Source: a virus. From it: 64,000 nt of DNA. A program made the position numbers and the translations under genes. The stretch lies in IMG/VR virus record IMGVR_UViG_3300025035_000001; one strand, given 5' to 3'. Shown one piece after another: positions 3,001-23,955 of the stretch. The notes below the pieces were generated by a model, which was given only the letters and a program-made list of their open reading frames with translations, had not been told where the DNA came from and did no database searches. Each line of letters begins with the position of its first letter. Position 1 is the first letter of the stretch.

Positions 3001-3900
3001 TCAGCTAATGATTTAGCTTTACAAATAGCAGAAAGAATTAAAGCCAAAAACACGGAAGAAGATATTAAATCATATTTAAGATTCTTGAGTGATGTTCAAT
3101 TAATTTCTTTTTTAAAATCAAACTCTCCAACGATTAAAAAAATGAAAAAGCTGACCAGAGCTAAATTATACAGTTCGGAAGGTGCTACAGAATTAAAAAA
3201 GATTTTACAAGATGCTATTTTAGAAAATAAAAATCAACTAGCGTATTTTGGTGGATACATTGCGGAAGATAACACTAAAGCCTTATATCCTGAAACTAGT
3301 TCCGAAATAAATTTAAAACCTAGTATAGTTATAGATTCAAACGACCCTATTGAATTAGAAATTAATATAAGTTTAATGAGAGCAGCCTTTAAAAAAGATG
3401 CTAATACAAAGATTGAAATAGGTGGTCAAAAGTTTGATTTTAAAGATATTTTATTTGTGTATGACCAATTAGTAACTAGGGGTTCTATGAGAACAGATTC
3501 TTTTGCAAGAGTAATGGTTTTAAACGATTGGAAGATTTTTGAAGATTTCAACGAGCTGGGTAAAAACTTAAACGATACTTTTAATATTCAAACATATCTT
3601 GACGAAGATAAAAATTATTTTACAGATGATTTTCATTTACAATTTACAGAAGTATACGGTGTTGAAACATTTGTAAAGGAAAACGAAAAAAGTAATGATT
3701 TTTTGTACGATTACGAAGGTTATGATACAGAAGAAAAATATGAAAAATATGATGATTATTTATCTTTGAAAATGTTAAAATCAGTAGAACCTGTGGCAGG
3801 AATAGTTACTAAAAAAGCGAAAACCAAAATAGAAAAAAATGATTTTATTCTTCAAATAGAAAAACTATTTGAAACTCCTAAAACTGAATTAATCTGTTAA
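1..3900 (+). CDS. crAss-like virion DNA-dependent RNA polymerase, C-terminal portion (5' end lies before the window)
   Basis: Frame is open from nt 1. SRTPGQD (RxP motif, 1330-1350) is followed by GADQDIDK (1441-1464), matching the DxDxD catalytic loop of double-psi-beta-barrel polymerases (DFDID in phi14:2 gp66). A giant virion-type gene follows. Confidence 0.8.
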   Translation, partial: GFGGRMGLRIYQMNDAMAFLIEEGLNELGAKVQNGVKTYSTEDINAKVVNTLAELKEFFNNAQSRSLSDDFQRVVLNIKPNEKKRASKFLLSTIIPANIQFEKDSFDTFTNLFNYKSTTFKKLKGQHIQPIQQLKLPIEKLGDDRDELVTIVRKMLISKISESDISQASELLKNEDPNFNNNQLRELLVTQLNSYFTKHSVREKYKGGQYVISPQTTAIYEVTLPDGRVKRYAGYFQALNSAKRAWKDNQDTDIDFGKFLKTKISKPRRLKGGNMKFKIVQEGQTLEKDFFDTNIFKLLKDAFTDKNNARRANDIEAFREAKAKHEGILGLANYTVKQFAQEGVFIDYNNDLTVREQYPIEKDSLKVTPFEIGLKLKDEDIQQFGIKPWMQPDDIDLDHFKRLVRKEKGLLFNEENISQDEVDIEKKAKALYNSFQRIIEMTVSRTPGQDLQSILGGKVAFITKGSDNNIEAPMELEYFQGADQDIDKGGIPMMEAENGKVISWHPDMYDNLDNPDVMRLPFVFKTDYKLEENADKVSSIVADIMPKYDEKELIEAIKTSNNLGIQAQIKLGKYKTFNIDDKKVVEALKEKQKWKPTRKGARNFITRFLFDAVVLPENAFQAQTAMTMDDLDMEATNASKGRLRNPKNRYSAAAQDIAKNDNNKGKLTIGIAATLIKTTGIFQNAYNELMRNSNFLFRNTLTPLRVTDENGKMVEYQAIPNLNYKNLSLNTSDDNLKYFIEVIQSSKYDPPTIPINGEMFNKAYVLSVLGNALSTKKGSKKRIEAMKKVRSVLSDFASFEATVTFLESQFLSAATDNAKELILEKINADVRTAGFFGSMLFRGVPIDVAIGVMTHPMFEYIVSETDTDLGQGTIEMSDFIESIDVEEEDVLANNLKETLLTLNNINEQNRLVAKIASLNQGTPNSFYAQLSYLSQIKKSHQKITKDEDYISLTAVLEQILEVTPENLSPHLHINLIASNPNYKALVKGLNTLVRVQRTLSSANDLALQIAERIKAKNTEEDIKSYLRFLSDVQLISFLKSNSPTIKKMKKLTRAKLYSSEGATELKKILQDAILENKNQLAYFGGYIAEDNTKALYPETSSEINLKPSIVIDSNDPIELEINISLMRAAFKKDANTKIEIGGQKFDFKDILFVYDQLVTRGSMRTDSFARVMVLNDWKIFEDFNELGKNLNDTFNIQTYLDEDKNYFTDDFHLQFTEVYGVETFVKENEKSNDFLYDYEGYDTEEKYEKYDDYLSLKMLKSVEPVAGIVTKKAKTKIEKNDFILQIEKLFETPKTELIC

Positions 3901-3904
3901 AATT

Positions 3905-6900
3905 ATGGCGATATGTATTAAAAATAAAAGTGGTGAAATAAGGATAGATAAATCTAATTACAAAGAATTTGAAAAAACTCATCCAGACTTAGCAAGTGAA
4001 ATTACAAAACAGATTAAACAAGGTGTAACTGATGAATTTTCCTTATCTTATCCTCCAAAAGGTTATTACCTTTTTAACACTTCTGGTTATGACCCTTCTC
4101 ATTTTACTTTTGAAAAAGGATTTAAATTTACAGAAAAAGATATTGATAGAGCTAATTTTTTAAATAAGCCAGTTAAAGTATTTGAAAATGTTGAAATCCC
4201 TTTTAAAAAAGGTCAACTTTTAAGAAACCGTTTAGGTGATACAAATATTATCTTAGCGAATGAAGATTCTAATAATAAAGAAGAATTTGATAAAATAGTT
4301 GATCACGAATTAGCTCATTTGCGTTTTGATAATCTTATAGATGAAAACGAAGCCGTTTCTAAATCGGCTAAAACAATATTGAGTAAATTAGAAACCTTAA
4401 ACGTAAGTAATAAAAAATTAGTAAAAGATTTACTAAATCGTGTTGATGGTAGCCCTTCAGAATTATTAGCGATTATAGATTCAGAACCCAAAGTAAAATC
4501 GTTTATAGAAAGTTTGTATTTAAGTAATGATGTGGATTTAATAGAGTCTGTAGAAACAATACATCACACTATGAATACATTTGTTAACGAGAATAGAACT
4601 TCAGAGGAATATAATGATAATTTACCATTTTCAGCAGCTAATTTAGATATTGAAACTTTAGAACAAACAAGTTTTAAAGAAGATGAAAACTATTTCAATA
4701 GAGTTAAAAAAACTTGGGATTTATATCAGACAAATAATAAGTTTAAAGGTTATGAGATAATTCAAAAAGGTGAGCACTCTTTTTTAGTTGAGAAAAATTA
4801 TGACAAAGAAAAAGGTTTTTCAGATATTGCTTATCAACAGCTTTTTCAAAAGTATCAAAGGGTCGAAGGTAAAACACTAAGTAATATTCTTAACGACAAT
4901 AATAGAGAAAGCCTTGTTAAATCAGAATGGGATGATTTAAAGCTTGATACTTTATCTGAACACGATTTGGTATTAGTGAGAAGAGAAAAAAAAGAAGATG
5001 GAAAAATTCAAGTATATATGCAGTATTTTCCAATCATGTATGTATTCCCTAGAGAACGTAAGTTTTTAGTAGCTACTGGATTCACCAATCAAAAAGGAAA
5101 AAATAAAGGTAAAGCAACTGCGCTACCTATTAATTATGACGATGTTATAGGATTTGCCAAATATTCAGGAAATCCTATAACAGAAATTCAACTACCTGCA
5201 AGTGGAGCAGAATATGCTAAAGAAATAGAGTTAGATACGCAAAATTTAAAAAAAGATTTTTCAATACAAACATATTCTCCTAATACCCATATTACGGTAT
5301 CGTTAGCTAATACTATTAAAGATAGAGTTAAACATGCTACAACTGTTGATAATTGGGTACAAGGGGGTGATGTGGTTAGAGTACGATGGGAAAAAAGTGA
5401 AGATTATAGAAACGATGAACATAAATTTAATTATTATGTAAAATTCTATAAAGTAGTAGCTAAACATGCTAACGCTGTAAGTGTTGCAATAAATAAAAAA
5501 AATGGAAGTGAGACTACTTTAGTTATTCCTTTTCATCAAATAGATAGAGTTGCTAAATCAAGAGAATCTTTCGATAAAGAATACAAAACTAAATTAAAAG
5601 AGGTTGAAATAACAAAAGGTAAAGAAACCTATACTGTATTTAATCCTGATGAGGAAGGAGAAATTAAAAAAATAGAGGATAGAAAAGAATATTTAAAAAA
5701 ACAAGGTTTAGATGAAAAAGAGTCAGAAAAAGAAATTTTATCTAGGATGTTACCTAGTGATTGGATAAAATATAAAGTAGCTAATCGAAAAGGAACATTA
5801 TGGGGAAAAATAATTAATGTAGGAGAAGATAGTGTTACTATTGTATCAGTTTCAAAGGAAGATACAAATTTAGAAGAAACAACTAAAAACTTTACCAAGA
5901 TTGTTTCTTTTAAAGATATTGAATGGCATTATTCTTCTTTGGATAAGGAAAACGAAACTTTTAGAAATCTTTATACTTATTTTAATAATCTTAAAGAAAC
6001 ATTTAACATATCTTCTAAAGCAGTAACAGCTTTAAATGAAGGAGCTGTGTTTCCTCCTGCTTATCGCACTATTACTGTTTCTAGTTTAAACGAAGACTAT
6101 ATAGACGAAAAAGGTAATTTAATGCGTTATTGGAAACAACTTAAACCAGGTGATAGGGTATCTCAAAGATTTAAGAAAAAAAATGGGGAATTTGGAATGA
6201 CAGTAGTCACAGTAACAAGAGTAGATTTACAAGGTAATGTATATTATGCCAACAAATCAGAATTTAAAACAACTAAAGGCGATTCTTTTTTTAGAACTAA
6301 TCGCTTTAAATTAAATCCTAAAGATGTTGTTAAATTTCATTTAATGGGAGAAACTGATTATCACCCTAGCTTCACTAAAGACTATCGTAAAAGCACATCT
6401 AAAGAAGTTGAAGAAGCATTTAAAGAATTTAATGAAAAATTAGAAGCTCAGAAAGCAAGAAACAATAAAAAAGATATTTCTTTAAACCAAGCAATTGAAT
6501 TTCAAAGTTTAGAAAAAGCAGAAGCTTTTAAAGAGTTGATGCTCGAACAGCAAAGACCCTTTACGTATGTGACTAAAGAAGTAACAGAGAAGAATCAAAA
6601 AAGAAAAGTTTATCTTAAAGCATGGGCTAAATTTTCTAAAGGTAAAGCCGTTAAAAAAAGTAATGGTGATTATGAAGCTGACCGACTAGTCACAAAGCTA
6701 GAAGCGGGTTACGCTAGAACAAATAATTATTTAACTATACCTATTGCTGCAAATCTTTTAAAAGAAGGTGATTATATTGCTCTAAAAAGAGATAATCAAG
6801 AATTTAAATTATATATTCAAGATGTATATAAATACAATCGAAAAGAGGGAGAAATAGGTTATTCTTTAACGACGTTAGGAAAAAGTAAAAAAGGAAGTCT

Positions 6901-9900
6901 ATATCATAGACAAGTTTATTTATATATTAATTTGAATGGAGAAGTTTCTGCAAAAATAGAGCAATTTGGTAAAAATGAAAAAGCAAAAGAAATTACTGTT
7001 GCTGCGTTAGGTTTAAAAGGTGGAGATTTAAGAAAAAATAAAGATTTAATTAGAGATAGAGACAATAAAACAGCAGCTCCTAAAATAAGAAAAACCAGAG
7101 CGAGTAAAGGTAAAATCAAAGCTCAAGATTTAGCAACGCTTACACAAATTGTAGATAATATAAATAATCTAACAGAAGCTAATGCTTCACTTGTAACAAA
7201 AGAAGAATTTAAACAAGCAATGATAAACAGAGGTGTTTATTATGTGAATGCTGAAAATGTAGAAAAAGCTTTTGTAGATAATGAAGGTAATATTGTAGTA
7301 AATAAAGAATTAGCTTCTACATCAGACGCTATGCACGAATATTATCACTTCGTAATGAGAAGTTTTGAAAAAGTAAATCCTAAAGCATATCAAGATTTAA
7401 TGAGTGCTGCGATGGAACATGAACTTTTTGAAGAAAAACGAGCTTTGTATTCTGATTATACTGATTTAGAAATAGCTGAAGAAGTTTTTGTAGGACTTGC
7501 TCAAGCTACTTTTGAATCTAAAAAAGACCCAAATTGGTTTGATAAGTTCAAGACTGTAATTAATGATTTTTATATACATTTTAAAAACTTTATCGGTAAA
7601 GTATTTGGTTATCAACCTTTTAAGTATGCAAGAGGTAGAGAGTTATTTAATATGACTTTAGAAGAACTCACACAACACTTTGGAAAAACAGATTTACGTA
7701 GATTAGAAAAAGAAAGAGTGACTTTATCTAATTCAATAACTGATTTAAGAAAAGGTGAAGCTATTCAAAAACTAAAAAATAATGTGTATTATGATGATAA
7801 TGTACCTTATCTGATTAATTCGCAAGGTGTTAGGTCTAAACTATTTGATAGAATACTACCTTTATCTAAAGATTTAGAAGTCGCATTAGAAATTTATGCA
7901 GAAATAGAATCTGATGTATTTAAACAAAAGATTAAAGATCAGAAGTTTCAAATACAAGATGGTGAATTACCTTTCAACTTAATTGAAAAGTATTTTGGTA
8001 ATCGTAGAGTAAGGTCTTCTCGTTTAGAAGCTTGGAAAACAACAAGAGATGAAGCTTTTGAAAAGATTAAAACCGCAGATATTATTAGTTTTAAAGAAGA
8101 AGAACATGAGTATTCTGTTAACGGTTCTAAAATAATAGGTAATTCTGAAAATTTAGAAAAAGAAGGAATTATTACACCTTATAATGAAGAAGATTTTAAA
8201 ACTAATTTAATTAATAACACTTTAGATTTAGTAGAAAAAACACAAGGCACATTAACTGAAGAAACCGAAGAGCAAATTAAAAGTAATATTGAACAATTTG
8301 TTAACCAGTTAAGTGTGATTAAAGAACCCGGTACATTGTTTCACAAAGCAATGCAAACTTTTCTTGAGGGTTATAATAAAGCTTATGGTAAAACTGATGA
8401 AGATAAAATAAGTAGGTCTTTAGACGATGCTTATGAAAAACTTATTGAAAGTGTAGATGGTGTAAATTGGTTTATAGATACACCCCAAATAAGAAATAAC
8501 TTTGAAACTAACGCAAGGCAACTTTTTGAAATTATTAAAATGAACTCAGGAGAGAATTTTAAAATTCTACCTGAACAAAAATTAACGTATACCGATGAAA
8601 ACGGTAAAATCACAGCCGCAGGTACGGCGGATATTGTCATTTTAAAAGCAAACGGTAAAGTAGATGTTTACGATTTTAAGTCATCTTATAAAAATGTTTC
8701 TAACTGGAGTAATTATAAAAACGAACACGTTGTAGCACAACAGTTGTCTTATCGCAGTTTTTTAAATTCTATGGGGCTTGTAGTAGATAATAATTTTATA
8801 TTACCTGTGTCTATGGATATGAATTTTAATACGGGTTATATTGATAGTTTTGAACCAATGAGTTTACTTAACATTTCAAGTTTTTTAAGTACTGAAGATA
8901 GAATAAAAATAGAAGATGAAATAAATCGTATTTATCCTGTTTCAGCTTCTAAAACAACTCAAGCTATTGAAAGTAATATTGAAGTAGCTGACTTTATGCA
9001 AGCTTATTTTAACTTCGATATTAATCCTACTAGAGAAACTACAGATGAAACAAACAAAAAACAATTTTCAGAAAGTTATAAATTTGAATCAGCAGTTCTT
9101 AGATTAATAGATAAACATAAAAACGGAAGATACACTGAAAAAAATCCTTTCGGAGATAAACCTATTTCAGTTAAAAAAGAATTAGAAAAGTTTAAAGTAA
9201 AAAAAGGATATAGTAGTATCGATAATATACCTATTGCGGATAGAATTAAAATTTATAAAGATACTTATTTAGATTTATTATTTAATTATGAAAAATCTAA
9301 AGGAAACACTTATAAAGCTGTAGTTGATTGGGTAAATGCACAAAGAGTAAACGTCTTATCTTCTCGCAATGTGGGTACAATGGCAGAGATAAACACTAAA
9401 ATCATAAAAAATAAAGATGATATATTTAATGAAACTTTCGCTTTAAAATTAGAAAAATATTTATACGATAGTAATTGGGAAGTAATTGAAAGTCCTGAAT
9501 TACAAGATTTAAACATTGTTGCTTTTTATCATAAACGAAATAAAGTTTGGGAATTTATTACTTTAACAGACAAAGACCCAAGCGACTATTTTCAAAATGG
9601 TGCTCAATCAACATTTCAACGAGTAGCTGCAATGCGTAGAAAAGGTTCTATTTTAGGAAAGTTTTTACCTGCACATCAGCTTACTGAAGATATTTTTGAA
9701 TCTACGTATGAAAACTATGAAGCGATGAAAGTAATGTTATTTATTATTAATAATCCTTCATTATTTAAAGATACTAAGATAGGAAAGTATAACCATGTTA
9801 TTAGCACTTCATCAACTACAAAAGATGTTGGGGATCAAACAATTAATTTTAATTGGTTTACTTTAGATGAAATGTTAAAACAATTAAAAAAAGTAGTTAG

Positions 9901-12676
9901 TCATCCAGCTACTAAAAATGTAAAAACAGAATTAGGTAAAAAGATTGAGAAATTCAATGTTAGAATATTTGACAATGTCGCAACTACTTATTTAGATGAA
10001 GCATTTATGCATCTTGATAGACTTCAAAGTAGAATGTTAGATTTGAGTAAATTTCAAAGAAACAATGAAGAAAGATTACTTAAAGGTCTAAAAATAGAAG
10101 GAACACAAACAATAGAAGATTTTTTTAAAACTAGGATACATCCTAAACTTTCTAATTTAGATGAGATTAATTATAAAATATTAGATGAAATTGTTCAAGA
10201 ATTGTCATTTTTAATTGATGCCGTAGAGAGAAAGCTAACGGTTGAGAACAGTGTGAATATATCTGAATTTTTATCACTTCTTCGTTCTGCAAGATTAGAA
10301 TTTGCTTATCAATTACCAGGTGCAAAGAACGAAGTACAAAAAATAGGTTCACTCACCAATGGTTATATGTTTGGTAAACCTGATGATTTGGTAGAACCTT
10401 CAGAAAAAGCAGTAGTCTCTTTAGTTAATCAAGCAAGGTTTGCTATACGTAATGAAGTTTTAGAATTTGCAAAAGGTGAACACTATGATAAAGTAAAAGC
10501 ATTGTATACTTCTAAAAACATGGGTACAATTAGCTCTGGTTTAAAACATGCTGTTTCAGGTAACTTTTTAAGAGCTTTTGACAATATGTTTGAATTAGAT
10601 GAGAAAGGTATGAATAATTATAGATTACGAGACCCTGATGAAAAAGCAGGTGATTACGATTATTTATCGAGAAAACAAACTGCTTTATCTATGCAAGAAA
10701 GAGATTATATTCGTTTTTTCTTAAAAGAAGTAAATGCGGTAAGAAGAGCTAACATGACAGCTAGTCAAAGAAAACAATTTGATGACGATACTGAAAGGCA
10801 TTTAGATTTACCTTTACAAAAAGCTTCTTCTTCAACTAAACTTCAAAATGAAGGTATTGGTGCAATGTTAGGAGAAGCTTATGAAAATATCATTAACCCT
10901 GCCCAAATATTTGAAGATGATATGAAATTTAAAAGAGCACAGGCAGAAAGAAAATATATGCCTAGTGTTTTTGATTATTTAGATACCGATATACAAGCTA
11001 GAGATGTAAAAATTCAACAAGCCAAAGATGATAATAACAAAGCGGCTTTTGAAACAAATTTAGAATTATTGTTAGATTCTTTTATATTATCTAATAGTAA
11101 GAAAAAACAGTTTAATAAAGTATTACCAATCATTAATGATTTGCGTTCTCACTTACTTTATCAAAGTATGGCTTATAACCAAGACACTGACAAAGCGGTT
11201 GAACAACTAGAGTTATATCTTGATTCAGCCGTATTCTCTAAGAGAGATAGAAGTTCTTCTAAGGATATAGAAGTGAGTAAAACTATACAAGGTGTTACTG
11301 GTGCAACTATGCAGTTAACAACAATGGCAAACTTAACTTTTAATGTGATGTCAGGTTTAAATCAGTATGTAGAATCTAACTTCTTAATGATGACTAAACA
11401 ATTAAGCGAAAGAAGTAACTTAAATACACCATCTGTTAGTGATTATGCATGGGCTTATCGTATGGTTCATGCTGATATTAAAAATGGTAAAACCGCAATT
11501 ACAAAGCTTCGAGAATTAAATCGTAGATACGGTATTAATGTAGATTTATCTGAACATGCGAAATACTTAACTAATCAAAATTATGGTTTAGCAAATGCTA
11601 CTCAAGCCGATGCTCTTTTACCTAACTCTATTCCTGATTACGTTACTCGAATGGCAATACTTTTAGCATATATGAAAAAAGACGGTTCTTGGGATGCTCA
11701 CACGATTAAAAATGATAGATTAATATATTTACCACATAAAGATAAAAGATTCTCCAAACTCTTTAATTCTAACGGTGTGATGAAAGATAAAAGTTTTTTT
11801 ACTACAGCTCAAGAAATGGAACAACTTACAATGTATGAAACATTAGTGAAAAGTCTTTCTTCTTCAGAGGGAGTTGTTGACGGAAAACCTATTATGGGTT
11901 ATGATGTAAAACAAGTACGAAACATGAAAAACGAAGCTGATACTATTTTAGGTGCGTTTACTAAAGCCGATAAATCAGCATATACCAATTTTGTAGGTTA
12001 TTCAATGTTACTTCAGTTTCAAAGGTATTTAGGCGGTACGCTTTATCGTCATTGGTTTGATGGAAAAGGTAAACGTTCTGATGCACAAGGAAGATACAAA
12101 CTTATAAAAAAAACAAAATTTAACGAAAATACAAGTAGAAATGAATTAGTATTAGACAAAAATAATAATCCTGTTTATGAATCTGTTTGGCAAACAGATT
12201 ATCACGAAGGTATTTTAAATACGTTTATGTATTTTATTAATAACACCAACTTAAAAAACCCTAAGTCATTTAGTAGTCTTTTGTTAGAAGGTTGGGCAGA
12301 TTTACCTGAAGAAGTTAAACGTAAACGTAAAGAAAATTTAAAGATGTTTTTAGCAGAAATGATAATTTTTATTCTTTCTAACATAGGTGGATATGCCTTA
12401 CTTGCTAACGCTAAAGAAACTCCTGGAGCTACAACCGCAGCTTTAGTTTTAGATAGAAGTACTAATAACATGATGTTTGGTTTTATAAGCAATGTGGTAA
12501 GTTTGGATAGAAATCCAGTCGCTTCAATTAACATGGCAAATAAAATTATCAGTAACACTTTTGATTCAGTAGTATTACTTTCTTCAGGTGAACCAATAAA
12601 AGCAATATCAAAAGTATCTCATAATTTTAATGTTACTGGTACAATAGCTGACGGTGTTCAGTACGTATTAGAATAA
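3905..12676 (+). CDS. Giant virion cargo/ejection protein with two zincin-like HExxH motifs and a PD-(D/E)xK nuclease-like domain
   Basis: 2923-aa ORF directly after the RNAP. HELAH at 4304-4318, HEYYH at 7334-7348 with downstream EE, GTADI...DFK at 8621-8680. Helical C-terminus. Confidence 0.7.
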   Translation: MAICIKNKSGEIRIDKSNYKEFEKTHPDLASEITKQIKQGVTDEFSLSYPPKGYYLFNTSGYDPSHFTFEKGFKFTEKDIDRANFLNKPVKVFENVEIPFKKGQLLRNRLGDTNIILANEDSNNKEEFDKIVDHELAHLRFDNLIDENEAVSKSAKTILSKLETLNVSNKKLVKDLLNRVDGSPSELLAIIDSEPKVKSFIESLYLSNDVDLIESVETIHHTMNTFVNENRTSEEYNDNLPFSAANLDIETLEQTSFKEDENYFNRVKKTWDLYQTNNKFKGYEIIQKGEHSFLVEKNYDKEKGFSDIAYQQLFQKYQRVEGKTLSNILNDNNRESLVKSEWDDLKLDTLSEHDLVLVRREKKEDGKIQVYMQYFPIMYVFPRERKFLVATGFTNQKGKNKGKATALPINYDDVIGFAKYSGNPITEIQLPASGAEYAKEIELDTQNLKKDFSIQTYSPNTHITVSLANTIKDRVKHATTVDNWVQGGDVVRVRWEKSEDYRNDEHKFNYYVKFYKVVAKHANAVSVAINKKNGSETTLVIPFHQIDRVAKSRESFDKEYKTKLKEVEITKGKETYTVFNPDEEGEIKKIEDRKEYLKKQGLDEKESEKEILSRMLPSDWIKYKVANRKGTLWGKIINVGEDSVTIVSVSKEDTNLEETTKNFTKIVSFKDIEWHYSSLDKENETFRNLYTYFNNLKETFNISSKAVTALNEGAVFPPAYRTITVSSLNEDYIDEKGNLMRYWKQLKPGDRVSQRFKKKNGEFGMTVVTVTRVDLQGNVYYANKSEFKTTKGDSFFRTNRFKLNPKDVVKFHLMGETDYHPSFTKDYRKSTSKEVEEAFKEFNEKLEAQKARNNKKDISLNQAIEFQSLEKAEAFKELMLEQQRPFTYVTKEVTEKNQKRKVYLKAWAKFSKGKAVKKSNGDYEADRLVTKLEAGYARTNNYLTIPIAANLLKEGDYIALKRDNQEFKLYIQDVYKYNRKEGEIGYSLTTLGKSKKGSLYHRQVYLYINLNGEVSAKIEQFGKNEKAKEITVAALGLKGGDLRKNKDLIRDRDNKTAAPKIRKTRASKGKIKAQDLATLTQIVDNINNLTEANASLVTKEEFKQAMINRGVYYVNAENVEKAFVDNEGNIVVNKELASTSDAMHEYYHFVMRSFEKVNPKAYQDLMSAAMEHELFEEKRALYSDYTDLEIAEEVFVGLAQATFESKKDPNWFDKFKTVINDFYIHFKNFIGKVFGYQPFKYARGRELFNMTLEELTQHFGKTDLRRLEKERVTLSNSITDLRKGEAIQKLKNNVYYDDNVPYLINSQGVRSKLFDRILPLSKDLEVALEIYAEIESDVFKQKIKDQKFQIQDGELPFNLIEKYFGNRRVRSSRLEAWKTTRDEAFEKIKTADIISFKEEEHEYSVNGSKIIGNSENLEKEGIITPYNEEDFKTNLINNTLDLVEKTQGTLTEETEEQIKSNIEQFVNQLSVIKEPGTLFHKAMQTFLEGYNKAYGKTDEDKISRSLDDAYEKLIESVDGVNWFIDTPQIRNNFETNARQLFEIIKMNSGENFKILPEQKLTYTDENGKITAAGTADIVILKANGKVDVYDFKSSYKNVSNWSNYKNEHVVAQQLSYRSFLNSMGLVVDNNFILPVSMDMNFNTGYIDSFEPMSLLNISSFLSTEDRIKIEDEINRIYPVSASKTTQAIESNIEVADFMQAYFNFDINPTRETTDETNKKQFSESYKFESAVLRLIDKHKNGRYTEKNPFGDKPISVKKELEKFKVKKGYSSIDNIPIADRIKIYKDTYLDLLFNYEKSKGNTYKAVVDWVNAQRVNVLSSRNVGTMAEINTKIIKNKDDIFNETFALKLEKYLYDSNWEVIESPELQDLNIVAFYHKRNKVWEFITLTDKDPSDYFQNGAQSTFQRVAAMRRKGSILGKFLPAHQLTEDIFESTYENYEAMKVMLFIINNPSLFKDTKIGKYNHVISTSSTTKDVGDQTINFNWFTLDEMLKQLKKVVSHPATKNVKTELGKKIEKFNVRIFDNVATTYLDEAFMHLDRLQSRMLDLSKFQRNNEERLLKGLKIEGTQTIEDFFKTRIHPKLSNLDEINYKILDEIVQELSFLIDAVERKLTVENSVNISEFLSLLRSARLEFAYQLPGAKNEVQKIGSLTNGYMFGKPDDLVEPSEKAVVSLVNQARFAIRNEVLEFAKGEHYDKVKALYTSKNMGTISSGLKHAVSGNFLRAFDNMFELDEKGMNNYRLRDPDEKAGDYDYLSRKQTALSMQERDYIRFFLKEVNAVRRANMTASQRKQFDDDTERHLDLPLQKASSSTKLQNEGIGAMLGEAYENIINPAQIFEDDMKFKRAQAERKYMPSVFDYLDTDIQARDVKIQQAKDDNNKAAFETNLELLLDSFILSNSKKKQFNKVLPIINDLRSHLLYQSMAYNQDTDKAVEQLELYLDSAVFSKRDRSSSKDIEVSKTIQGVTGATMQLTTMANLTFNVMSGLNQYVESNFLMMTKQLSERSNLNTPSVSDYAWAYRMVHADIKNGKTAITKLRELNRRYGINVDLSEHAKYLTNQNYGLANATQADALLPNSIPDYVTRMAILLAYMKKDGSWDAHTIKNDRLIYLPHKDKRFSKLFNSNGVMKDKSFFTTAQEMEQLTMYETLVKSLSSSEGVVDGKPIMGYDVKQVRNMKNEADTILGAFTKADKSAYTNFVGYSMLLQFQRYLGGTLYRHWFDGKGKRSDAQGRYKLIKKTKFNENTSRNELVLDKNNNPVYESVWQTDYHEGILNTFMYFINNTNLKNPKSFSSLLLEGWADLPEEVKRKRKENLKMFLAEMIIFILSNIGGYALLANAKETPGATTAALVLDRSTNNMMFGFISNVVSLDRNPVASINMANKIISNTFDSVVLLSSGEPIKAISKVSHNFNVTGTIADGVQYVLE

Positions 12677-13870: not shown

Positions 13871-13927
13871 TTTTTAATTTTAATTTTATAATGTTAACTT
13901 TTACTATATGTAATATTTACCTATTTT

Positions 13928-14182
13928 TTAGTAAAAAGATAATAGGTCAATCTTTGGTAAGTCCGCACCTTTTACTTTGGTTACATCGCCAATTTGTATT
14001 GTATTAGGATAATTGCTTTGTGTTACCTTAATTGCGTGTTTGTCTATTTCAGAAGCAAAGTAATTGTTCACGTTAATTCCTGCACGTTCTAAAGCTAACC
14101 TACCACATGATATGCCGTCAAGTGAAGAAAGTATATTAATACCCTCACTTAAAAAAATATTATTACTACATTTGTTTTTCAT
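13928..14182 (-). pseudogene. Truncated C5 cytosine DNA methyltransferase (N-terminal fragment)
   Basis: ILSSLDGISCG (degenerate motif I), YFASEID, GDV and IDLL are present, but the ORF stops where the catalytic GGSPC should begin. Confidence 0.8.
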
Positions 14183-14215
14183 ATCAAAGTTTTGTGTTTA
14201 AAATCTGCACCAAAC

Positions 14216-14311
14216 AGCTAACAGAGTATATAAAAAAATAGCCTATGAAAAGTCTGTGTATAATATCAAAGTTTGTGGTTAAGCTACTTTTCATATACCT
14301 GTACGTTATGC
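14216..14311 (-). repeat. attC-like imperfect palindrome a
   Basis: Minus strand gcaTAAC...GTTAGCT, 96 bp. Arms gtatataaaaaaatagc / gctacttttcatatac. The TAA stop of 14306..14518 lies inside the left core. Confidence 0.65.
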
Positions 14312-14518
14312 AACATTTGATAATCGAATCTTTTCACGTTCTGCTTTATACCACCGTAGTTTCTCATACCGACTTTGGTAATGCGTTTTTAATAGTTTTC
14401 CCCACATTTCTTTTATCCTAAAGTCATCAATCCATGGGCTACACTCAAAGTCTTTCTGCCACTCTATAAACTGCCATTCTCTGTATGCACTTACTAATGG
14501 AAGTATTGGTAAAACCAA
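14306..14518 (-). CDS. Hypothetical protein, cassette-like
   Basis: ORF track; lies between palindromes b and a. The frame extends upstream through palindrome b. Confidence 0.55.
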   Translation of the reverse strand: MVLPILPLVSAYREWQFIEWQKDFECSPWIDDFRIKEMWGKLLKTHYQSRYEKLRWYKAEREKIRLSNVA

Positions 14519-14553
14519 AGTTGCACCAAACGCATTCCACCAGAAAAAACGTT

Positions 14554-14685
14554 GCGTAACACGGTATATAGAAAATAGCCGTGTTATGGGTCTTTTTAAA
14601 ACTATTTTCTTGTTATCAAATTTATTTACTTTCTACATTGTTTGTGCTTAATTTAAGCTACTTACAATATACTTTTCTATTATAG
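14554..14685 (-). repeat. attC-like imperfect palindrome b (left core degenerate, AAT)
   Basis: Arms gtatatagaaaatagc / gctacttacaatatac pair at 13 of 16 positions. Right core GTTACGC. Similar in sequence to palindrome a. Confidence 0.6.
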
Positions 14686-14744
14686 ATGAGGGTAAAAAAT
14701 CCCACGCTCATCCTATCACACTATTAAGTAAATGGAACACTTTT

Positions 14745-14930
14745 TTAATTTTCATTTAGTTCTGCAATCCATTTATCAATTTGTTTTTGATCTTCAACAG
14801 GTCTTCCAAATTTCAAATCCTTTAAACAATCTACCAAACAATACCTAACAGGCATTTTTAATGGTTTACCAATGTTTTCCTTTTTTTCTTCTTCGGTCAT
14901 TGATTTTGTGAAAATTTTAATGTTTTTCAT
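14745..14930 (-). CDS. Hypothetical protein, cassette-like
   Basis: ORF track; starts 24 nt after the GTTACGG core of palindrome c. Confidence 0.6.
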   Translation of the reverse strand: MKNIKIFTKSMTEEEKKENIGKPLKMPVRYCLVDCLKDLKFGRPVEDQKQIDKWIAELNEN

Positions 14931-14953
14931 TTTTTTAAGTATTAAACACCAGC

Positions 14954-15070
14954 CCGTAACATTAAATATAAAACAGCAGGGCTGTGGTGCTGAATCATAC
15001 TATGAGCTACTACTCATCTTAATTTTTGTGATAAAAGTTCCGCCCTTCGGGAAGCTGCAAAACGTTAGCG
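14954..15070 (-). repeat. attC-like element c
   Basis: Minus strand cgctAAC (directly after the stop of 15071..15391) to GTTACGG, 117 bp. Arms pair only partially. Confidence 0.5.
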
Positions 15071-15391
15071 TTAATTCGCCTTGTGTACTAAGTCAGCTAC
15101 TACCTGATTAATGTACTTATTTAGTTGATTCCGCAAGGCAACCGCTTGACCATAACTGAGTAATATTGTTCCTTTACCGTATTCTTCGTCTTCCTCCCAT
15201 CCATCACCTCTGTCGATTAATCTGGCACACCAGTCTTTTACTGATAGTCTTAGCTGATATTCGTGAGGTTCTGGATTTTTAAAATGGTCAAGCGAAAGTC
15301 TTGCTCTACTTCCGTTTTTTAAATAAAAAATATCCTCAGATTCCCGTCCACCAGAACTACCGCTAACAACAGCTAGGGCTAATGAGTACAA
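15071..15391 (-). CDS. Hypothetical protein, cassette-like
   Basis: ORF track; N-terminal AVVSGS is encoded across a GTTAGCG core (15361-15367). Confidence 0.6.
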   Translation of the reverse strand: MYSLALAVVSGSSGGRESEDIFYLKNGSRARLSLDHFKNPEPHEYQLRLSVKDWCARLIDRGDGWEEDEEYGKGTILLSYGQAVALRNQLNKYINQVVADLVHKAN

Positions 15392-15436
15392 CCCATAACA
15401 TTGGCTATATGTAATGCCTTAATTATATAGTTAAAC
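15361..15436 (-). repeat. attC-like element d (shortened, two right cores)
   Basis: Minus strand GTTTAAC is an exact RYYYAAC containing the stop of 15431..15823. It is followed by GTTATGG (15393-15399) and GTTAGCG (15361-15367). Confidence 0.45.
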
Positions 15437-15823
15437 ACAATATAGAGCCATTCCCCTTTTAAATAAATCAGAAGCAATAGTTTTGCGTTCTAAAAAATCT
15501 TGGAATTTATTTCTTTTCTCTATTGGTTTTATGCCTGTTATATGGCTATATTCTGATTTAAACATTTGTTTAAACTCATTATCTAAACCTTCAATCCCCT
15601 TTTCAGCATAATAATATCCGTTTAAAAGTGTATATTGACAAATATTTGTCGCAGTATGCATATCTACGTCAGTAAATGGTCTAATAAATGATACTACACA
15701 ATATCTATCCATTTTTGATAATTCCGTTGATACTAAAAAAGACTCGTGTAAAATACTGTGTTTAACAACAGGTTTATTTAATGTCTGTTCTATGCTGTTT
15801 TTTAAATTCTGTTCTTTTTTCAT
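15431..15823 (-). CDS. Hypothetical protein, cassette-like
   Basis: ORF track; start codon lies inside element e, and PVVKHS is encoded across the GTTAAAC core. Confidence 0.65.
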   Translation of the reverse strand: MKKEQNLKNSIEQTLNKPVVKHSILHESFLVSTELSKMDRYCVVSFIRPFTDVDMHTATNICQYTLLNGYYYAEKGIEGLDNEFKQMFKSEYSHITGIKPIEKRNKFQDFLERKTIASDLFKRGMALYCV

Positions 15824-15890
15824 ATGTATTTATATTTTGAAAGTTTAGTGTTTTTAATCCGTTACTTTTAATAGCTGCATTCTGTTAGTT
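15760..15890 (-). repeat. attC-like element e
   Basis: Minus strand aacTAAC (stop of a 13-codon mini-ORF, 15885..15926) to GTTAAAC, 131 bp. Arms pair weakly. Confidence 0.45.
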
Positions 15891-15968
15891 GCAAGTGCTA
15901 CTTTTGTGCTTTGTATTAAGCTTCATCGTAGTATTCTTTTTGTTTTATTTTTTATTCAATACACAAAA

Positions 15969-23093: not shown

Positions 23094-23678
23094 TTAAGGT
23101 ATGTATAAATTAATTGGGTTATCCTTATGAATGTCAATGTCGGGATAATTGTTTTTGAAATTTCGCAAATCAAAAGGTTTTGTTATCAGATGAATGCCAT
23201 TTTTAGTTGGTAGTTGAGTCACTAATTTATTGCCTTCAGGATTACAATTATCAATAAAGTGTATCATTTCTAAAAGCCACTCATCATCAAAATCCCCATC
23301 AATATCTATTATCCAAGTCTTGTTTTTGTCGTTGTGTCCATTTCCGCAAGCCCTATCGTATGATTTTTTGATAAAAGAATATTCGCCATTTGCCATTGAA
23401 TTAGCTATGTTTTGCATTGTTTTAAATGCAACGTTACTGTAAGACCTTTTATTTAATCTAAGCATCGCCCTTGCATTAAATTGATTGCACAATTCTTTTA
23501 TTTCATCGTATTTGCTTTCAAGGTATTCAATACTCCCTATGTAATAGTTTTTAATAACTCTACTATTTGAACCCAATTGCGGATTCTCTTTTTTTCGTTG
23601 AAGAATTTGCAAGTAGTAAAAATCATCATCTGATTCAAAAACAAGCAATTCCTTTATTTTGTCAAAAACATCTATCAT
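23094..23678 (-). CDS. Conserved phage protein with AEP (primase-polymerase)-like motifs
   Basis: DDFYYLQILQRKKE N-terminus; WIIDID (motif I-like) and TKNGIHLI (motif II-like). Confidence 0.55.
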   Translation of the reverse strand: MIDVFDKIKELLVFESDDDFYYLQILQRKKENPQLGSNSRVIKNYYIGSIEYLESKYDEIKELCNQFNARAMLRLNKRSYSNVAFKTMQNIANSMANGEYSFIKKSYDRACGNGHNDKNKTWIIDIDGDFDDEWLLEMIHFIDNCNPEGNKLVTQLPTKNGIHLITKPFDLRNFKNNYPDIDIHKDNPINLYIP

Positions 23679-23693
23679 AATAAGTTATATTAT

Positions 23694-23787
23694 GGCTAAC
23701 ACAATATATAGTGTATAACCGATTAAACATCTATTTTATAGCCAAGTTTTAGGTGTTCGGCTACACACCATATACAAAACATTACCG
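23694..23787 (-). repeat. attC-like imperfect palindrome f
   Basis: Arms tatatagtgtataaccga / tcggctacacaccatata pair at 15 of 18 positions. Right core GTTAGCC lies 15 nt before the start at 23678. Left core is ggtAAT. Confidence 0.65.
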
Positions 23788-23918
23788 CTCATTTAAGAGC
23801 ACAAATACCGAACAATATCAGTTTTTACAATTCGGAAGTTTTTTGTTTTCAAATTCCTTAGAATTATCATGACTGAAATAGTTGTATAGCGTGTTTGCAA
23901 GAATGCTTACTCATAACC

Positions 23919-23955
23919 GCAATACTCCCGTATATCGCAGGAGTATTGCTTTTTT
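23919..23955 (+). terminator. Terminator-like hairpin oriented for the + strand
   Basis: gcaatactcc / ggagtattgc 10-bp stem followed by T6. Confidence 0.55.

What the first reader, a model, noticed from the sequence alone, without database searches (positions are those of the whole stretch)
13928..15930. Integron-cassette-like array (attC-like palindromes between small genes) in a lytic phage with no integrase in view
Five elements (14216-14311, 14554-14685, 14954-15070, 15361-15436, 15760-15890) separate five co-oriented genes. On the coding strand each starts with a ..TAAC or ..TAAT core and ends with GTT (GTTAGCT, GTTACGC, GTTACGG, GTTATGG, GTTAAAC). Three left cores contain a TAA stop and one directly follows a stop. 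Established: attC sites are RYYYAAC...GTTRRRY imperfect palindromes of about 55-141 bp and often overlap the cassette stop. Inference: the phage captures or shuffles accessory genes as cassettes, using a host integrase or hairpin-mediated recombination.
Basis: partly seen in the sequence, partly recalled or inferred. Interest (0 to 1): 0.85.

Follow-up and report, generated by a model that had tools for sequence, protein, structure and literature searches.

The report
Hairpin-bounded gene cassettes in phage
The spacers between these small phage genes are copies or worn-down remnants of a widespread hairpin element of Bacteroidota phages that marks the borders of swappable single-gene cassettes, much like integron attC sites but without the integron enzyme and not a true member of that family.

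Summary
All genes lie on the minus strand. The five spacers do not fold as end-to-end palindromes, and TAAC/GTT cores alone are not above chance. E1 (14211-14316), more weakly E2 (14549-14690), and the isolated E6 (23689-23792) belong to a structured family. I found 68 copies in 38 loci, often in arrays between small genes. E5 is a decayed copy; E3, E4 and a sixth remnant E0 are fragments.

Anatomy: nnnnnnnnYAAC, a 5-7 nt spacer, an 18-bp covarying stem, a loop in discrete size classes, a 3-nt spacer, GTTRnnnnnnnn.

Each YAAC box is complementary to the GTTR box of the upstream element, not to its own. So every gene is flanked by 12-14 nt inverted repeats, as in integron cassettes. This holds in two independent sets and for two cassettes in this window. 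In three contig comparisons, shared modules end at TAAC.

No integrase is visible in the window. No IntI was found in 201 Flavobacteriaceae genomes. One family member, published as P12002L_attC1, failed the IntI1 assay. The agent and any regulatory role remain inferred.

This scan met the same family before on other DNA (e1-3285714, e1-3541497).

The parts
13887..13914 (-). E0: remnant of a family element (half of a 3' arm plus a GTTA box) directly behind the truncated methylase gene
   Evidence: 85% direct repeat with the E4 half arm (D7); coordinates
13928..14182 (-). 84-aa N-terminal fragment of a C-5 cytosine DNA methyltransferase: truncated cargo gene
   Evidence: Pfam PF00145 positions 3-66 of 324, E 1.1e-9; PHROG DNA methyltransferase
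14211..14316 (-). E1, intact family element. YAAC box 14305-14316 (holds the TAA stop of the 70-aa ORF), spacer 14299-14304, 5' arm 14281-14298, loop 14245-14280, 3' arm 14226-14244, GTTA box 14211-14222
   Evidence: 50.9 bits, E 1.4e-7 against model R1, which was built without it; coordinates
14305..14560 (-). Cassette B: GTTA box of E2, then the 70-aa ORF (14306-14518), then the YAAC box of E1. Relatives start at an ATG inside the GTTA box; here that codon reads ACG
   Evidence: Ends pair at 10 Watson-Crick plus 1 wobble of 12. The same unit occurs in two other contigs, with identity ending at TAAC. Homologues are 74-86% identical
14549..14690 (-). E2, family element with a long (73 nt) loop. 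TAAT box 14679-14690, 5' arm 14655-14672, 3' arm 14564-14581, GTTA box 14549-14560
   Evidence: 21.6 bits, E 0.1 against R2; positional homology with family hairpins in L138 and L139
14685..14712 (-). Short G+C-rich hairpin with a T run behind the 61-aa ORF; terminator-like and not part of the family
   Evidence: Read from the sequence; coordinates
14745..14930 (-). 61-aa ORF with no family match and no cassette-type end repeats
14949..15069 (-). E3, degenerate. Family-type 5' end (GCTAACG plus spacer) and 3' end (arm-like stretch plus GTTA box) around an unrelated centre
   Evidence: No model hit; fold z -0.4; ends located
15071..15391 (-). 106-aa ORF with a TTG start. An ATG inside the E4 GTTA box is out of frame and stops after 5 codons
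15388..15441 (-). E4, truncated element. YAAC box 15430-15441 (holds the TAA stop of the 130-aa ORF), 3' arm only 15403-15420, GTTA box 15388-15399; 5' arm and loop are missing
   Evidence: fold z +0.6
15430..15766 (-). Cassette A: GTTA box of E5, then the body of the 130-aa ORF, then the YAAC box of E4
   Evidence: Ends pair at 11 Watson-Crick plus 1 wobble of 12
15755..15895 (-). E5, decayed long-loop element. YAAC box 15884-15895, mutated 5' arm 15859-15877, 3' arm 15769-15787, GTTA box 15755-15766. The ATG of the 130-aa ORF (15823) lies in its loop
   Evidence: 78.6% identity over 97 nt to the phi19:3 copy, which scores 40 bits; the arms no longer pair
23689..23792 (-). E6, best-preserved copy in the window, 22 nt upstream of the 194-aa gene
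   Evidence: 114.6 bits. Its 20-mer recurs in 10 viral contigs in front of different genes

Best explanation
The spacers are copies and remnants of a family of folded joints that bound mobile single-gene cassettes in phages of Bacteroidota (mostly Flavobacteriia).

A unit is: hairpin, GTTR box, short leader, gene, YAAC box. The GTTR and YAAC boxes of one unit are complementary over 12-14 nt. If the unit were cut out as a circle or single strand, they would close into one long attC-like stem.

Units are exchanged between phage genomes by breakage and joining at the 5' foot of the hairpin, within TAAC-G and the 5-7 nt spacer. The hairpin therefore moves with the gene downstream of it.

Shown: the family, its structure, the end complementarity and the breakpoints.

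Inferred:
- The sense strand is the one that folds.
- The hairpin also serves expression of its gene (a conserved loop word, and a start codon 17-29 nt behind the GTTR box or inside the loop).
- The agent is either a host Xer-type tyrosine recombinase acting on folded single strands, or hairpin-provoked template switching or short-homology recombination by the phage's own machinery. It is not an integron integrase.

In this window the array is old. Two cassettes still have matching ends. The others, including a methylase cut to 84 residues, are decaying.
For: Family:
- Model R1, built from nine E6-type copies, finds E1 at E 1.4e-7.
- Model R2 finds 68 copies in 38 loci and 32 more in bacterial-genome contigs, always on the gene strand and often in arrays 0.3-1.3 kb apart.

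Structure:
- The stem has 18 pairs, 15 with compensatory changes, and 96.9% of cells are paired.
- The covariation score is 0.61, against 0.17 in shuffles and about 0.1 when slid.
- Two G-T pairs are almost invariant on the sense strand. Elsewhere G-T outnumbers A-C 29 to 8.

Cassette ends (8 variable positions):
- YAAC(k) pairs with GTTR(k-1) at 4.4 Watson-Crick. In situ it is 2.5 and permuted 2.7. One of 100,000 permutations reached the observed value.
- Replication on independent loci gave 5.25 against 2.67 in situ and 2.63 permuted, with 0 of 20,000 permutations as high.
- In the window: 12 of 12 for E5 to E4 and 11 of 12 for E2 to E1; in situ only the four invariant bases pair.

Breakpoints:
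- L053/L093 are 99% identical from just after TAACG-nn, through hairpin and gene, to the next TAACG, then unrelated.
- L008/L015 show the same pattern.
- The window's 70-aa gene is shared with L138 and L139 up to TAAC and followed by three different sequences.

Compactness: upstream ORFs stop inside the YAAC box region. Downstream ORFs start 17-48 nt after GTTR, or in the loop.
Against: - No recombinase can be named. None was found among 20 window ORFs.
- Two complete element-bearing phage genomes lack tyrosine, serine and Y1 recombinase domains.
- The tyrosine recombinases next to arrays in phi19:3, G006 and G008 are unrelated to one another.
- The 2-4 nt right after TAACG differ even between 99% identical modules. 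This is not expected of a simple precise single cut.
- One comparison (window against L138/L139) breaks on the other side of the hairpin.
- The only polymorphism seen in this phage's own population removes E6 plus its gene (about 850 nt), and its ends are not at the cores.
- Only three contig comparisons give breakpoints.
- The alignments were fitted to the model, which inflates pairing counts.
- No RNA data exist for this phage, so a purely regulatory role of the hairpin is not excluded.
Confidence: 0.6

Rival explanations
1. Regulatory joints in the manner of PeSLs. The hairpin is primarily a terminator, RNA-processing site and promoter or leader between early genes. Gene swapping is a by-product of ordinary homologous recombination between these conserved sequences. 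The gene-flanking repeats would serve the mRNA, for example as a 5'-3' panhandle after processing.
For: - The element fills the whole space from stop to start and keeps a fixed distance to the ATG.
- G-T wobbles lie on the sense (RNA-like) strand.
- A conserved loop word AAAC-TTTG resembles the Bacteroidetes -7 box TAnnTTTG: 13 of 65 loops match at 5 of 6 or better, against 5.7 +/- 2.5 in shuffles.
- PeSLs are composite promoter/terminator motifs that flank ORFans, recombine and give mini-circles without any dedicated recombinase (PMC2839356, PMC4122927).
Against: - Breakpoints fall at the 5-nt TAACG word and not in the much longer identical stems next to it.
- Nothing in a terminator or promoter role predicts 12-14 nt complementarity between the two ends of each gene.
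- The promoter match is weak and the TTG-to-box spacing (23-31 nt) is longer than the 19 to about 21 nt I recall for Bacteroidetes promoters.
- Copies with 4-5 nt loops cannot hold a promoter.
Confidence: 0.25
2. Genuine integron attC sites (a CALIN), recombined by a host IntI integron integrase, as the first reader proposed and as Qi et al. 2023 proposed for a Polaribacter phage.
For: - Box words fit the loose RYYYAAC/GTTRRRY consensus (GCCTAAC/GTTAGGC occur) and cassette-end complementarity is present.
- HattCI called the family member at L018:29995-30069 an attC site. A neighbouring site in the same phage did recombine with IntI1.
Against: - P12002L_attC1, the clear family member, was the one site of six that gave no IntI1 recombinants.
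- The stem has no bulged extrahelical bases.
- The exchange point is on the YAAC side, so the hairpin goes with the downstream gene.
- No match above the IntI cut-off in 201 Flavobacteriaceae genomes or in the Lutibacter genome that carries a copy (no positive control rang).
- There is no attI or intI in the window.
Confidence: 0.05
3. Inverted repeats for DNA inversion. Each gene is an inverton-like switchable segment flanked by recombinase target repeats, as is common in Bacteroidota.
For: Each gene is flanked by 12-14 nt inverted repeats. Tyrosine recombinases sit next to some arrays.
Against: All 100 copies found are co-oriented with their genes, and no strand-switch joints appeared in four metagenome runs. 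The breakpoints indicate exchange of units, not inversion.
Confidence: 0.04
4. Chance palindromes in AT-rich intergenic DNA.
For: Four of the five elements as delimited fold no better than shuffles. TAAC and GTTA are frequent words.
Against: Model hits reach E 1e-7 to 1e-23, with covariation, recurrence in about 50 contigs and precise breakpoints.
Confidence: 0.01

Closest known systems
Integron attC sites and CALINs, including those reported in virulent phages (Qi et al. 2023, PMC9892861)
   Same: - YAAC...GTTR boxes around an imperfect hairpin with an unpaired spacer and a variable terminal loop.
- Arrays between co-oriented single genes, with stops overlapping the left box.
- The two ends of each cassette are complementary.
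- DNA methylases are common cargo.
- One family member (P12002L_attC1) was already called an attC site.
   Different: - No extrahelical bases; the stem sequence is strongly conserved.
- The exchange point is at the 5' foot, so the hairpin precedes and travels with its gene.
- End complementarity is 12-14 nt instead of about 7.
- There is no IntI in phages or sampled hosts.
- The tested member failed with IntI1.
PeSLs (promoter-early stem-loops) of T4-type phages (Arbiol et al. 2010, PMC2839356; Comeau et al. 2014, PMC4122927)
   Same: - Conserved composite intergenic motifs with a stem-loop, between small ORFans in plastic regions of lytic phages.
- They mark indel and replacement borders.
- No dedicated recombinase is known.
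   Different: - PeSLs are defined by a near-consensus sigma-70 promoter plus a G/C-tract terminator.
- Their crossovers lie in the loop or the AT-rich part.
- No gene-flanking inverted repeats are described.
- Here the host type, sequence and 18-bp covarying stem are different.
Folded single-strand sites used by host XerCD (CTX-type phage attP(+), IMEX elements)
   Same: A hairpin in one DNA strand creates the duplex target of a host tyrosine recombinase, so the mobile element needs no recombinase of its own (my knowledge, not tested here).
   Different: No dif-like site was shown here, no integration into a chromosome dimer-resolution site, and no Xer dependence was tested.
RNase III processing hairpins between T7 early genes
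   Same: Lower stem, asymmetric internal loop and upper stem lie exactly between cistrons, with structure on the sense strand (my knowledge).
   Different: T7 sites are not flanked by gene-spanning repeats and are not borders of gene exchange. No processing data exist here.
Morons (autonomous promoter-gene-terminator inserts in phage genomes)
   Same: Single accessory genes with their own upstream signal are inserted between other genes. E6 plus the 194-aa gene is present or absent within the population.
   Different: Morons have no common folded joint and no matching end repeats.

Membership tests
Integron attC site | R'' RYYYAAC and R' GTTRRRY boxes at the two ends | tested here: inconclusive
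   YAAC and GTTR are nearly invariant and some copies read GCCTAAC/GTTAGGC. The three positions beyond are free, so only 4 of 7 positions are constrained.
Integron attC site | Imperfect hairpin with R box, unpaired central spacer, L box/stem and variable terminal structure | tested here: met
   A 5-7 nt / 3 nt unpaired spacer, an 18-bp covarying stem, and loops of 4-5, 30-38, 61-65 or 70-76 nt.
Integron attC site | Conserved extrahelical (bulged) bases that set strand choice | tested here: not met
   Most copies have 18 nt in each arm with no bulge. Instead there are two invariant G-T pairs on the sense strand.
Integron attC site | The inverse core of a cassette is complementary to the core at the start of the same cassette | tested here: met
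   4.4-5.25 of 8 variable positions pair, against 2.5-2.7 in situ or permuted; p about 1e-5 and below 5e-5 in two sets. Two cassettes in the window show it.
Integron attC site | Crossover at G|TT of R', so that the attC travels behind the gene upstream of it | tested here: not met
   In three comparisons the hairpin stays with the downstream gene and the border is at TAAC-G on the 5' side. One border lies on the 3' side.
Integron attC site | An IntI integron integrase in the element or host | tested here: not met
   None among 20 window ORFs. None above cut-off in 201 Flavobacteriaceae genomes or in Lutibacter litoralis (no positive control, and the window covers only part of the phage).
Integron attC site | Recombination by IntI in an attC x attI assay | not testable with these tools
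   Literature only: the family member P12002L_attC1 gave no recombinants with IntI1, while five other phage sites did (PMC9892861).
PeSL (T4-type promoter-early stem-loop) | Host-consensus early promoter joined to a terminator stem-loop | tested here: inconclusive
   A loop word resembles the Bacteroidetes -7 box (13 of 65 against 5.7 in shuffles), but spacing is off and no transcript data exist. The stem is not followed by a T run.
PeSL (T4-type promoter-early stem-loop) | Flanks small ORFans in plastic regions and marks indel or replacement borders between related phages | tested here: met
   Arrays between small ORFs without known families; borders.
The hairpin family defined here (models R1/R2) | Significant match to a covariance model built without the sequence in question | tested here: met
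   E1 met: 50.9 bits, E 1.4e-7 against R1. E6 was in R1's training set, but its 20-mer recurs in 10 viral contigs. E2 is marginal: E 0.1 against R2. E3, E4 and E5 are not met by the model; E5 is tied in by direct homology.

The most novel reading that the evidence does not exclude
Phages of Bacteroidota run an integron-like gene-cassette system of their own kind. A folded site lies in front of each gene and doubles as its expression signal. It is cut at TAAC on the strand that folds. It is served not by IntI but by a host Xer-type enzyme or an as yet unrecognised phage protein. Cassettes, often anti-restriction methylases, circulate between unrelated phage families and occasionally host islands.
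Probability: 0.3. Interest if true: 0.85.

Novelty: new variant of a known kind. Interest (0 to 1): 0.7.

Why it matters
How lytic phages acquire and shuffle their many small accessory genes is largely unexplained outside the T4 group. This family offers a concrete, sequence-defined joint with mapped borders. It is present in unrelated phage families (Pachyviridae, Incheonvirus, the large phage of this window), in many metagenomic viral contigs and in a Flavobacteriaceae chromosome.

If the joints are enzyme targets, integron-style cassette exchange would extend to a phylum and a lifestyle where integron integrases were not found. The published label 'attC site' for one member would also need re-reading.

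If they are only regulatory, they are still a large uncatalogued structured element (no Rfam match) that can be used to delimit accessory genes in Bacteroidota phage genomes.

The cargo seen here (DNA methylases, a primase-polymerase neighbour, defence-island context) points to the phage-host arms race.

Tried and rejected
- Folding the five elements end to end on both strands gave no attC-like global hairpin for four of them.
- Sigma-70 promoter and terminator scans were not above shuffles.
- Rfam gave no family at gathering score and only noise at E up to 5.
- The short motifs AGTAGCT and AAACTTTGAT as stand-alone window-wide signals: the first is enriched but lies mostly inside genes, the second is at chance level.
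- The strict word GCTAT..TATA..GTTA occurs only twice in the window.
- Searches for close relatives of this phage:
  - The own assembly is not held.
  - The nearest record is an 18-kb fragment without the region.
  - The flanking 157-aa protein has no relatives in viral contigs.
  - The 150-aa protein has only two distant relatives.
  - The 70-aa protein has none in viral contigs, but six in the protein collection.
- No RNA runs hold this DNA.
- The joint 14205 to 15828 in two runs rests on only 20 letters and was not used.
- A dedicated recombinase family next to arrays (lead e1-3541497). Tyrosine recombinases lie just downstream of arrays in phi19:3 and G006, and 4 kb from one in G008. They are not alike (E 0.1 or worse), and 8 of 11 contigs, including two complete genomes, have none.
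- Y1 transposase: not found. Serine recombinase: not consistently found.
- A Bacteroidetes promoter in the loop has weak support only.
Full report
CONTEXT

The window is part of a large AT-rich (about 27% GC) phage assembled from aquifer metagenomes; 24 runs hold the region and none is RNA. Nucleotide and protein neighbours are phages of Flavobacteriia such as Cellulophaga, Olleya and Tenacibaculum.

From 12.9 to 45 kb all genes run on the minus strand. They include replication and nucleotide-metabolism genes.

The finding covers five small minus-strand ORFs:
- 13928-14182 is only the first 84 residues of a C-5 DNA methylase (Pfam positions 3-66 of 324).
- The other four have no family match.

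CHECK OF THE OBSERVATION

The elements as delimited are not end-to-end palindromes. As single-stranded DNA, four of the five fold no better than shuffles on either strand. E2 and the isolated sixth element fold better, E2 through local hairpins. Rfam has nothing here.

On those grounds alone the finding would fail its own refutation test. It is rescued by comparison with other genomes.

A FAMILY

In each case about 95 nt are conserved, directly in front of a different gene.

- A covariance model of nine such copies (R1) finds E1 of the array at 50.9 bits, E 1.4e-7.
- A second model (R2) finds 68 copies in 38 loci.
- R2 also finds 32 copies in contigs of Maribacter, Psychroflexus, Chitinophagaceae and other Bacteroidota bins, and in the chromosome of Lutibacter litoralis beside a type III restriction-modification locus.

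Copies are always co-oriented with the genes. They often stand in arrays 0.3-1.3 kb apart, for example six in L093 and four each in L031 and L061.

ANATOMY

Read on the gene strand, an element consists of:
- a 12-nt box ending in YAAC;
- a 5-7 nt spacer beginning with G;
- an 18-nt arm;
- a loop in discrete size classes (4-5, 30-38, 61-65, 70-76 nt);
- the 18-nt return arm;
- a 3-nt spacer;
- a 12-nt box beginning with GTTR.

The stem is well supported. Fifteen of its 18 pairs show compensatory double changes and 96.9% of cells are paired. The covariation score is 0.61, against 0.17 in shuffles and about 0.1 when the partner is slid. The alignment was fitted to the model, which favours pairing.

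Two pairs are G-T in 63 of 67 and 66 of 68 copies. At the other positions G-T outnumbers A-C 29 to 8. So the gene strand, as DNA or RNA, folds better than its complement.

THE CASSETTE SIGNATURE

Beyond the four invariant bases, the YAAC box of an element is not complementary to the GTTR box of the same element: 2.5 Watson-Crick pairs of 8, equal to background. It is complementary to the GTTR box of the next element upstream.

- For 16 neighbour pairs up to 700 nt apart the mean is 4.4 of 8. Typical pairs show 10 Watson-Crick pairs, a conserved wobble and two or three more pairs. One of 100,000 permutations reached this value.
- An independent set of 12 neighbour pairs from the bacterial-genome contigs gives 5.25, against 2.67 in situ and 2.63 permuted, with 0 of 20,000 permutations as high.

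Every gene is thus bracketed by inverted repeats, GTTR-n6-GTTA ... TAAT-n6-YAAC. This is the relation known for integron cassettes, whose inverse core matches the core at the start of the same cassette (my knowledge of the integron literature).

The units are compact. Upstream ORFs stop inside the YAAC box region, at the TAA of TAAC or 7-13 nt before it. Downstream ORFs start 17-48 nt after GTTR or, in about a quarter of long-loop copies, inside the loop.

WHERE UNITS BREAK

Three comparisons were available.

1. L053 and L093 are 99% identical over 354 nt. The identity begins just after TAACG-nn, runs through hairpin, GTTR box and gene, and ends at the next TAACG. Beyond it come different hairpins.
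2. L008 and L015 show the same at 92% identity.
3. The window's own 70-aa gene recurs in L138 and L139 at 74-86% protein identity. It is next to a Prim-Pol-like gene in one and behind an N6/N4 methylase in the other.
   - Identity ends at GCATAAC and three different sequences follow.
   - L138 and L139 share the hairpin in front of the gene and differ upstream of its TAACG.
   - The window has another hairpin allele (E2) in front of the same GTTR box.

The usual border is therefore the 5' foot of the hairpin, and the hairpin travels with the gene downstream of it. A border at the 3' foot also occurs.

The 2-4 nt after TAACG differ in every comparison, even at 99% identity. I cannot explain this. 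An overlap region inherited from either parent would fit, but that is conjecture.

THE WINDOW'S ARRAY IN THIS LIGHT

- Cassette A runs from the GTTA box of E5 (15755-15766) to the YAAC box of E4 (15430-15441). Its ends pair at 12 of 12, one of them a wobble.
- Cassette B runs from the GTTA box of E2 (14549-14560) to the YAAC box of E1 (14305-14316). Its ends pair at 11 of 12.
  - In relatives the start codon of this gene is the ATG inside the GTTA box.
  - Here it reads ACG, which also creates the one mismatch in the repeat.
- E5 is homologous to a phi19:3 copy but its 5' arm no longer pairs.
- The ATG of the 130-aa ORF lies in the loop of E5.
- E4 has lost its 5' arm and loop.
- E3 keeps only family-type ends.
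- A half element, E0, follows the truncated methylase.

The array looks like an old, eroding set of cassettes rather than an active site.

THE AGENT

No tyrosine recombinase is among 20 window ORFs of suitable size. The phi19:3 recombinase finds nothing in the window. The window is only part of the genome.

Of 11 element-bearing contigs, three encode a tyrosine recombinase. In phi19:3 and G006 it lies just downstream of the array; in G008 it is 4 kb away. The three proteins are not alike.

Two complete genomes, a 38-kb contig with terminal repeats and Polaribacter phage P12002L, have no tyrosine, serine or Y1 recombinase domain.

No integron integrase was found above cut-off in 201 Flavobacteriaceae genomes. 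No control genome rang, so this reads as 'not found in those searched'.

LITERATURE

Qi et al. 2023 (PMC9892861) reported clusters of attC sites without integrase in virulent phages, among them Polaribacter phage P12002L. Their site P12002L_attC1, as given in their primer table, is my R2 hit at L018:29995-30069. Further R2 hits flank the methylase and Mom-like genes of that phage. That site was the only one of six that gave no recombinants with IntI1.

The PeSLs of T4-type phages are the nearest functional analogue. They are composite promoter/terminator motifs that flank ORFans, mark replacement borders and give mini-circles with no dedicated recombinase (PMC2839356, PMC4122927).

This scan met the same family twice before on other DNA (e1-3285714, e1-3541497). 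My results agree on the family and on the borders. They only partly bear out the claim of a dedicated recombinase.

VERDICT

The spacers are real members or relics of an attC-like joint family that bounds exchangeable genes. Three defining integron features are not met: extrahelical bases, the crossover side, and IntI.

I put 0.6 on hairpin-foot exchange of gene-plus-hairpin units with an unidentified agent. I put 0.25 on primarily regulatory joints with homology-driven exchange. The other readings get little.

A regulatory role of the hairpin, suggested by a loop word like the Bacteroidetes -7 box, has weak support and is compatible with either reading.

Noticed in passing
window 23105-23955: Presence/absence polymorphism in the phage population. 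In runs X24 and X23 a contig joins 23104 to about 23956, removing a terminator-like hairpin, E6 and nearly all of the 194-aa gene. Depth is 7.5 without against 5.8 with in X24, and 2.2 against 5.7 in X23. The ends are not at TAAC/GTTA words; one lies beside a run of eight G.
   Followed up: partly
window 14151-14318: Short contigs (97-460 nt) at higher depth than the phage match only this stretch, at about 88% identity, and then run on unlike. E1-like elements therefore sit in other genomes of the same aquifer community.
   Followed up: no
family copies, spacer after TAACG (e.g. L053:6795 / L093:9925; L008:6800 / L015:365): The 2-4 nt right after TAACG differ even between modules that are 99% identical on one side. 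This holds whichever side is shared, as if that short spacer were set anew or inherited at random at each junction.
   Followed up: partly
long-loop family copies (e.g. L003:1485-1637, L086:924-1073, L040:1535-1687; window 15755-15895): In about a quarter of copies with 61-76 nt loops, an ATG in the loop opens the long downstream ORF. The 3' arm and the GTTR box are then translated as residues about 10-25 of unrelated proteins.
   Followed up: partly
L141 (Lutibacter litoralis NZ_BMNS01000001, 626.4-626.6 kb) and L152: One family copy lies in a bacterial chromosome in front of a 72-aa ORF. It sits among DUF3644, DUF3800 and a type III restriction-modification pair, about 7.5 kb from a 393-aa tyrosine recombinase and near the contig end. 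It may lie on an integrated element.
   Followed up: partly
supplement of PMC9892861 (PH101_attC1, PH101_attC2): The two sites of Pseudoalteromonas phage PH101 that did recombine with IntI1 also read TATAACG...CTTGTTAT. TAACG-type joints may therefore not be confined to Bacteroidota phages.
   Followed up: no
window 14183-14205 and 15824-15859: The 36 nt in front of the ATGs of the methylase fragment and of the 130-aa ORF are 72% alike (AAAC-TTTG/C word). A weak joint between exactly these two places appears in two runs, with only 20 letters on one side.
   Followed up: no
window 3905-12676 and 1-3900: A 2923-aa ORF and a 1299-aa or longer ORF have almost no database relatives (one 22% identical match in a gut phage contig). 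They lie next to the early-gene block.
   Followed up: no
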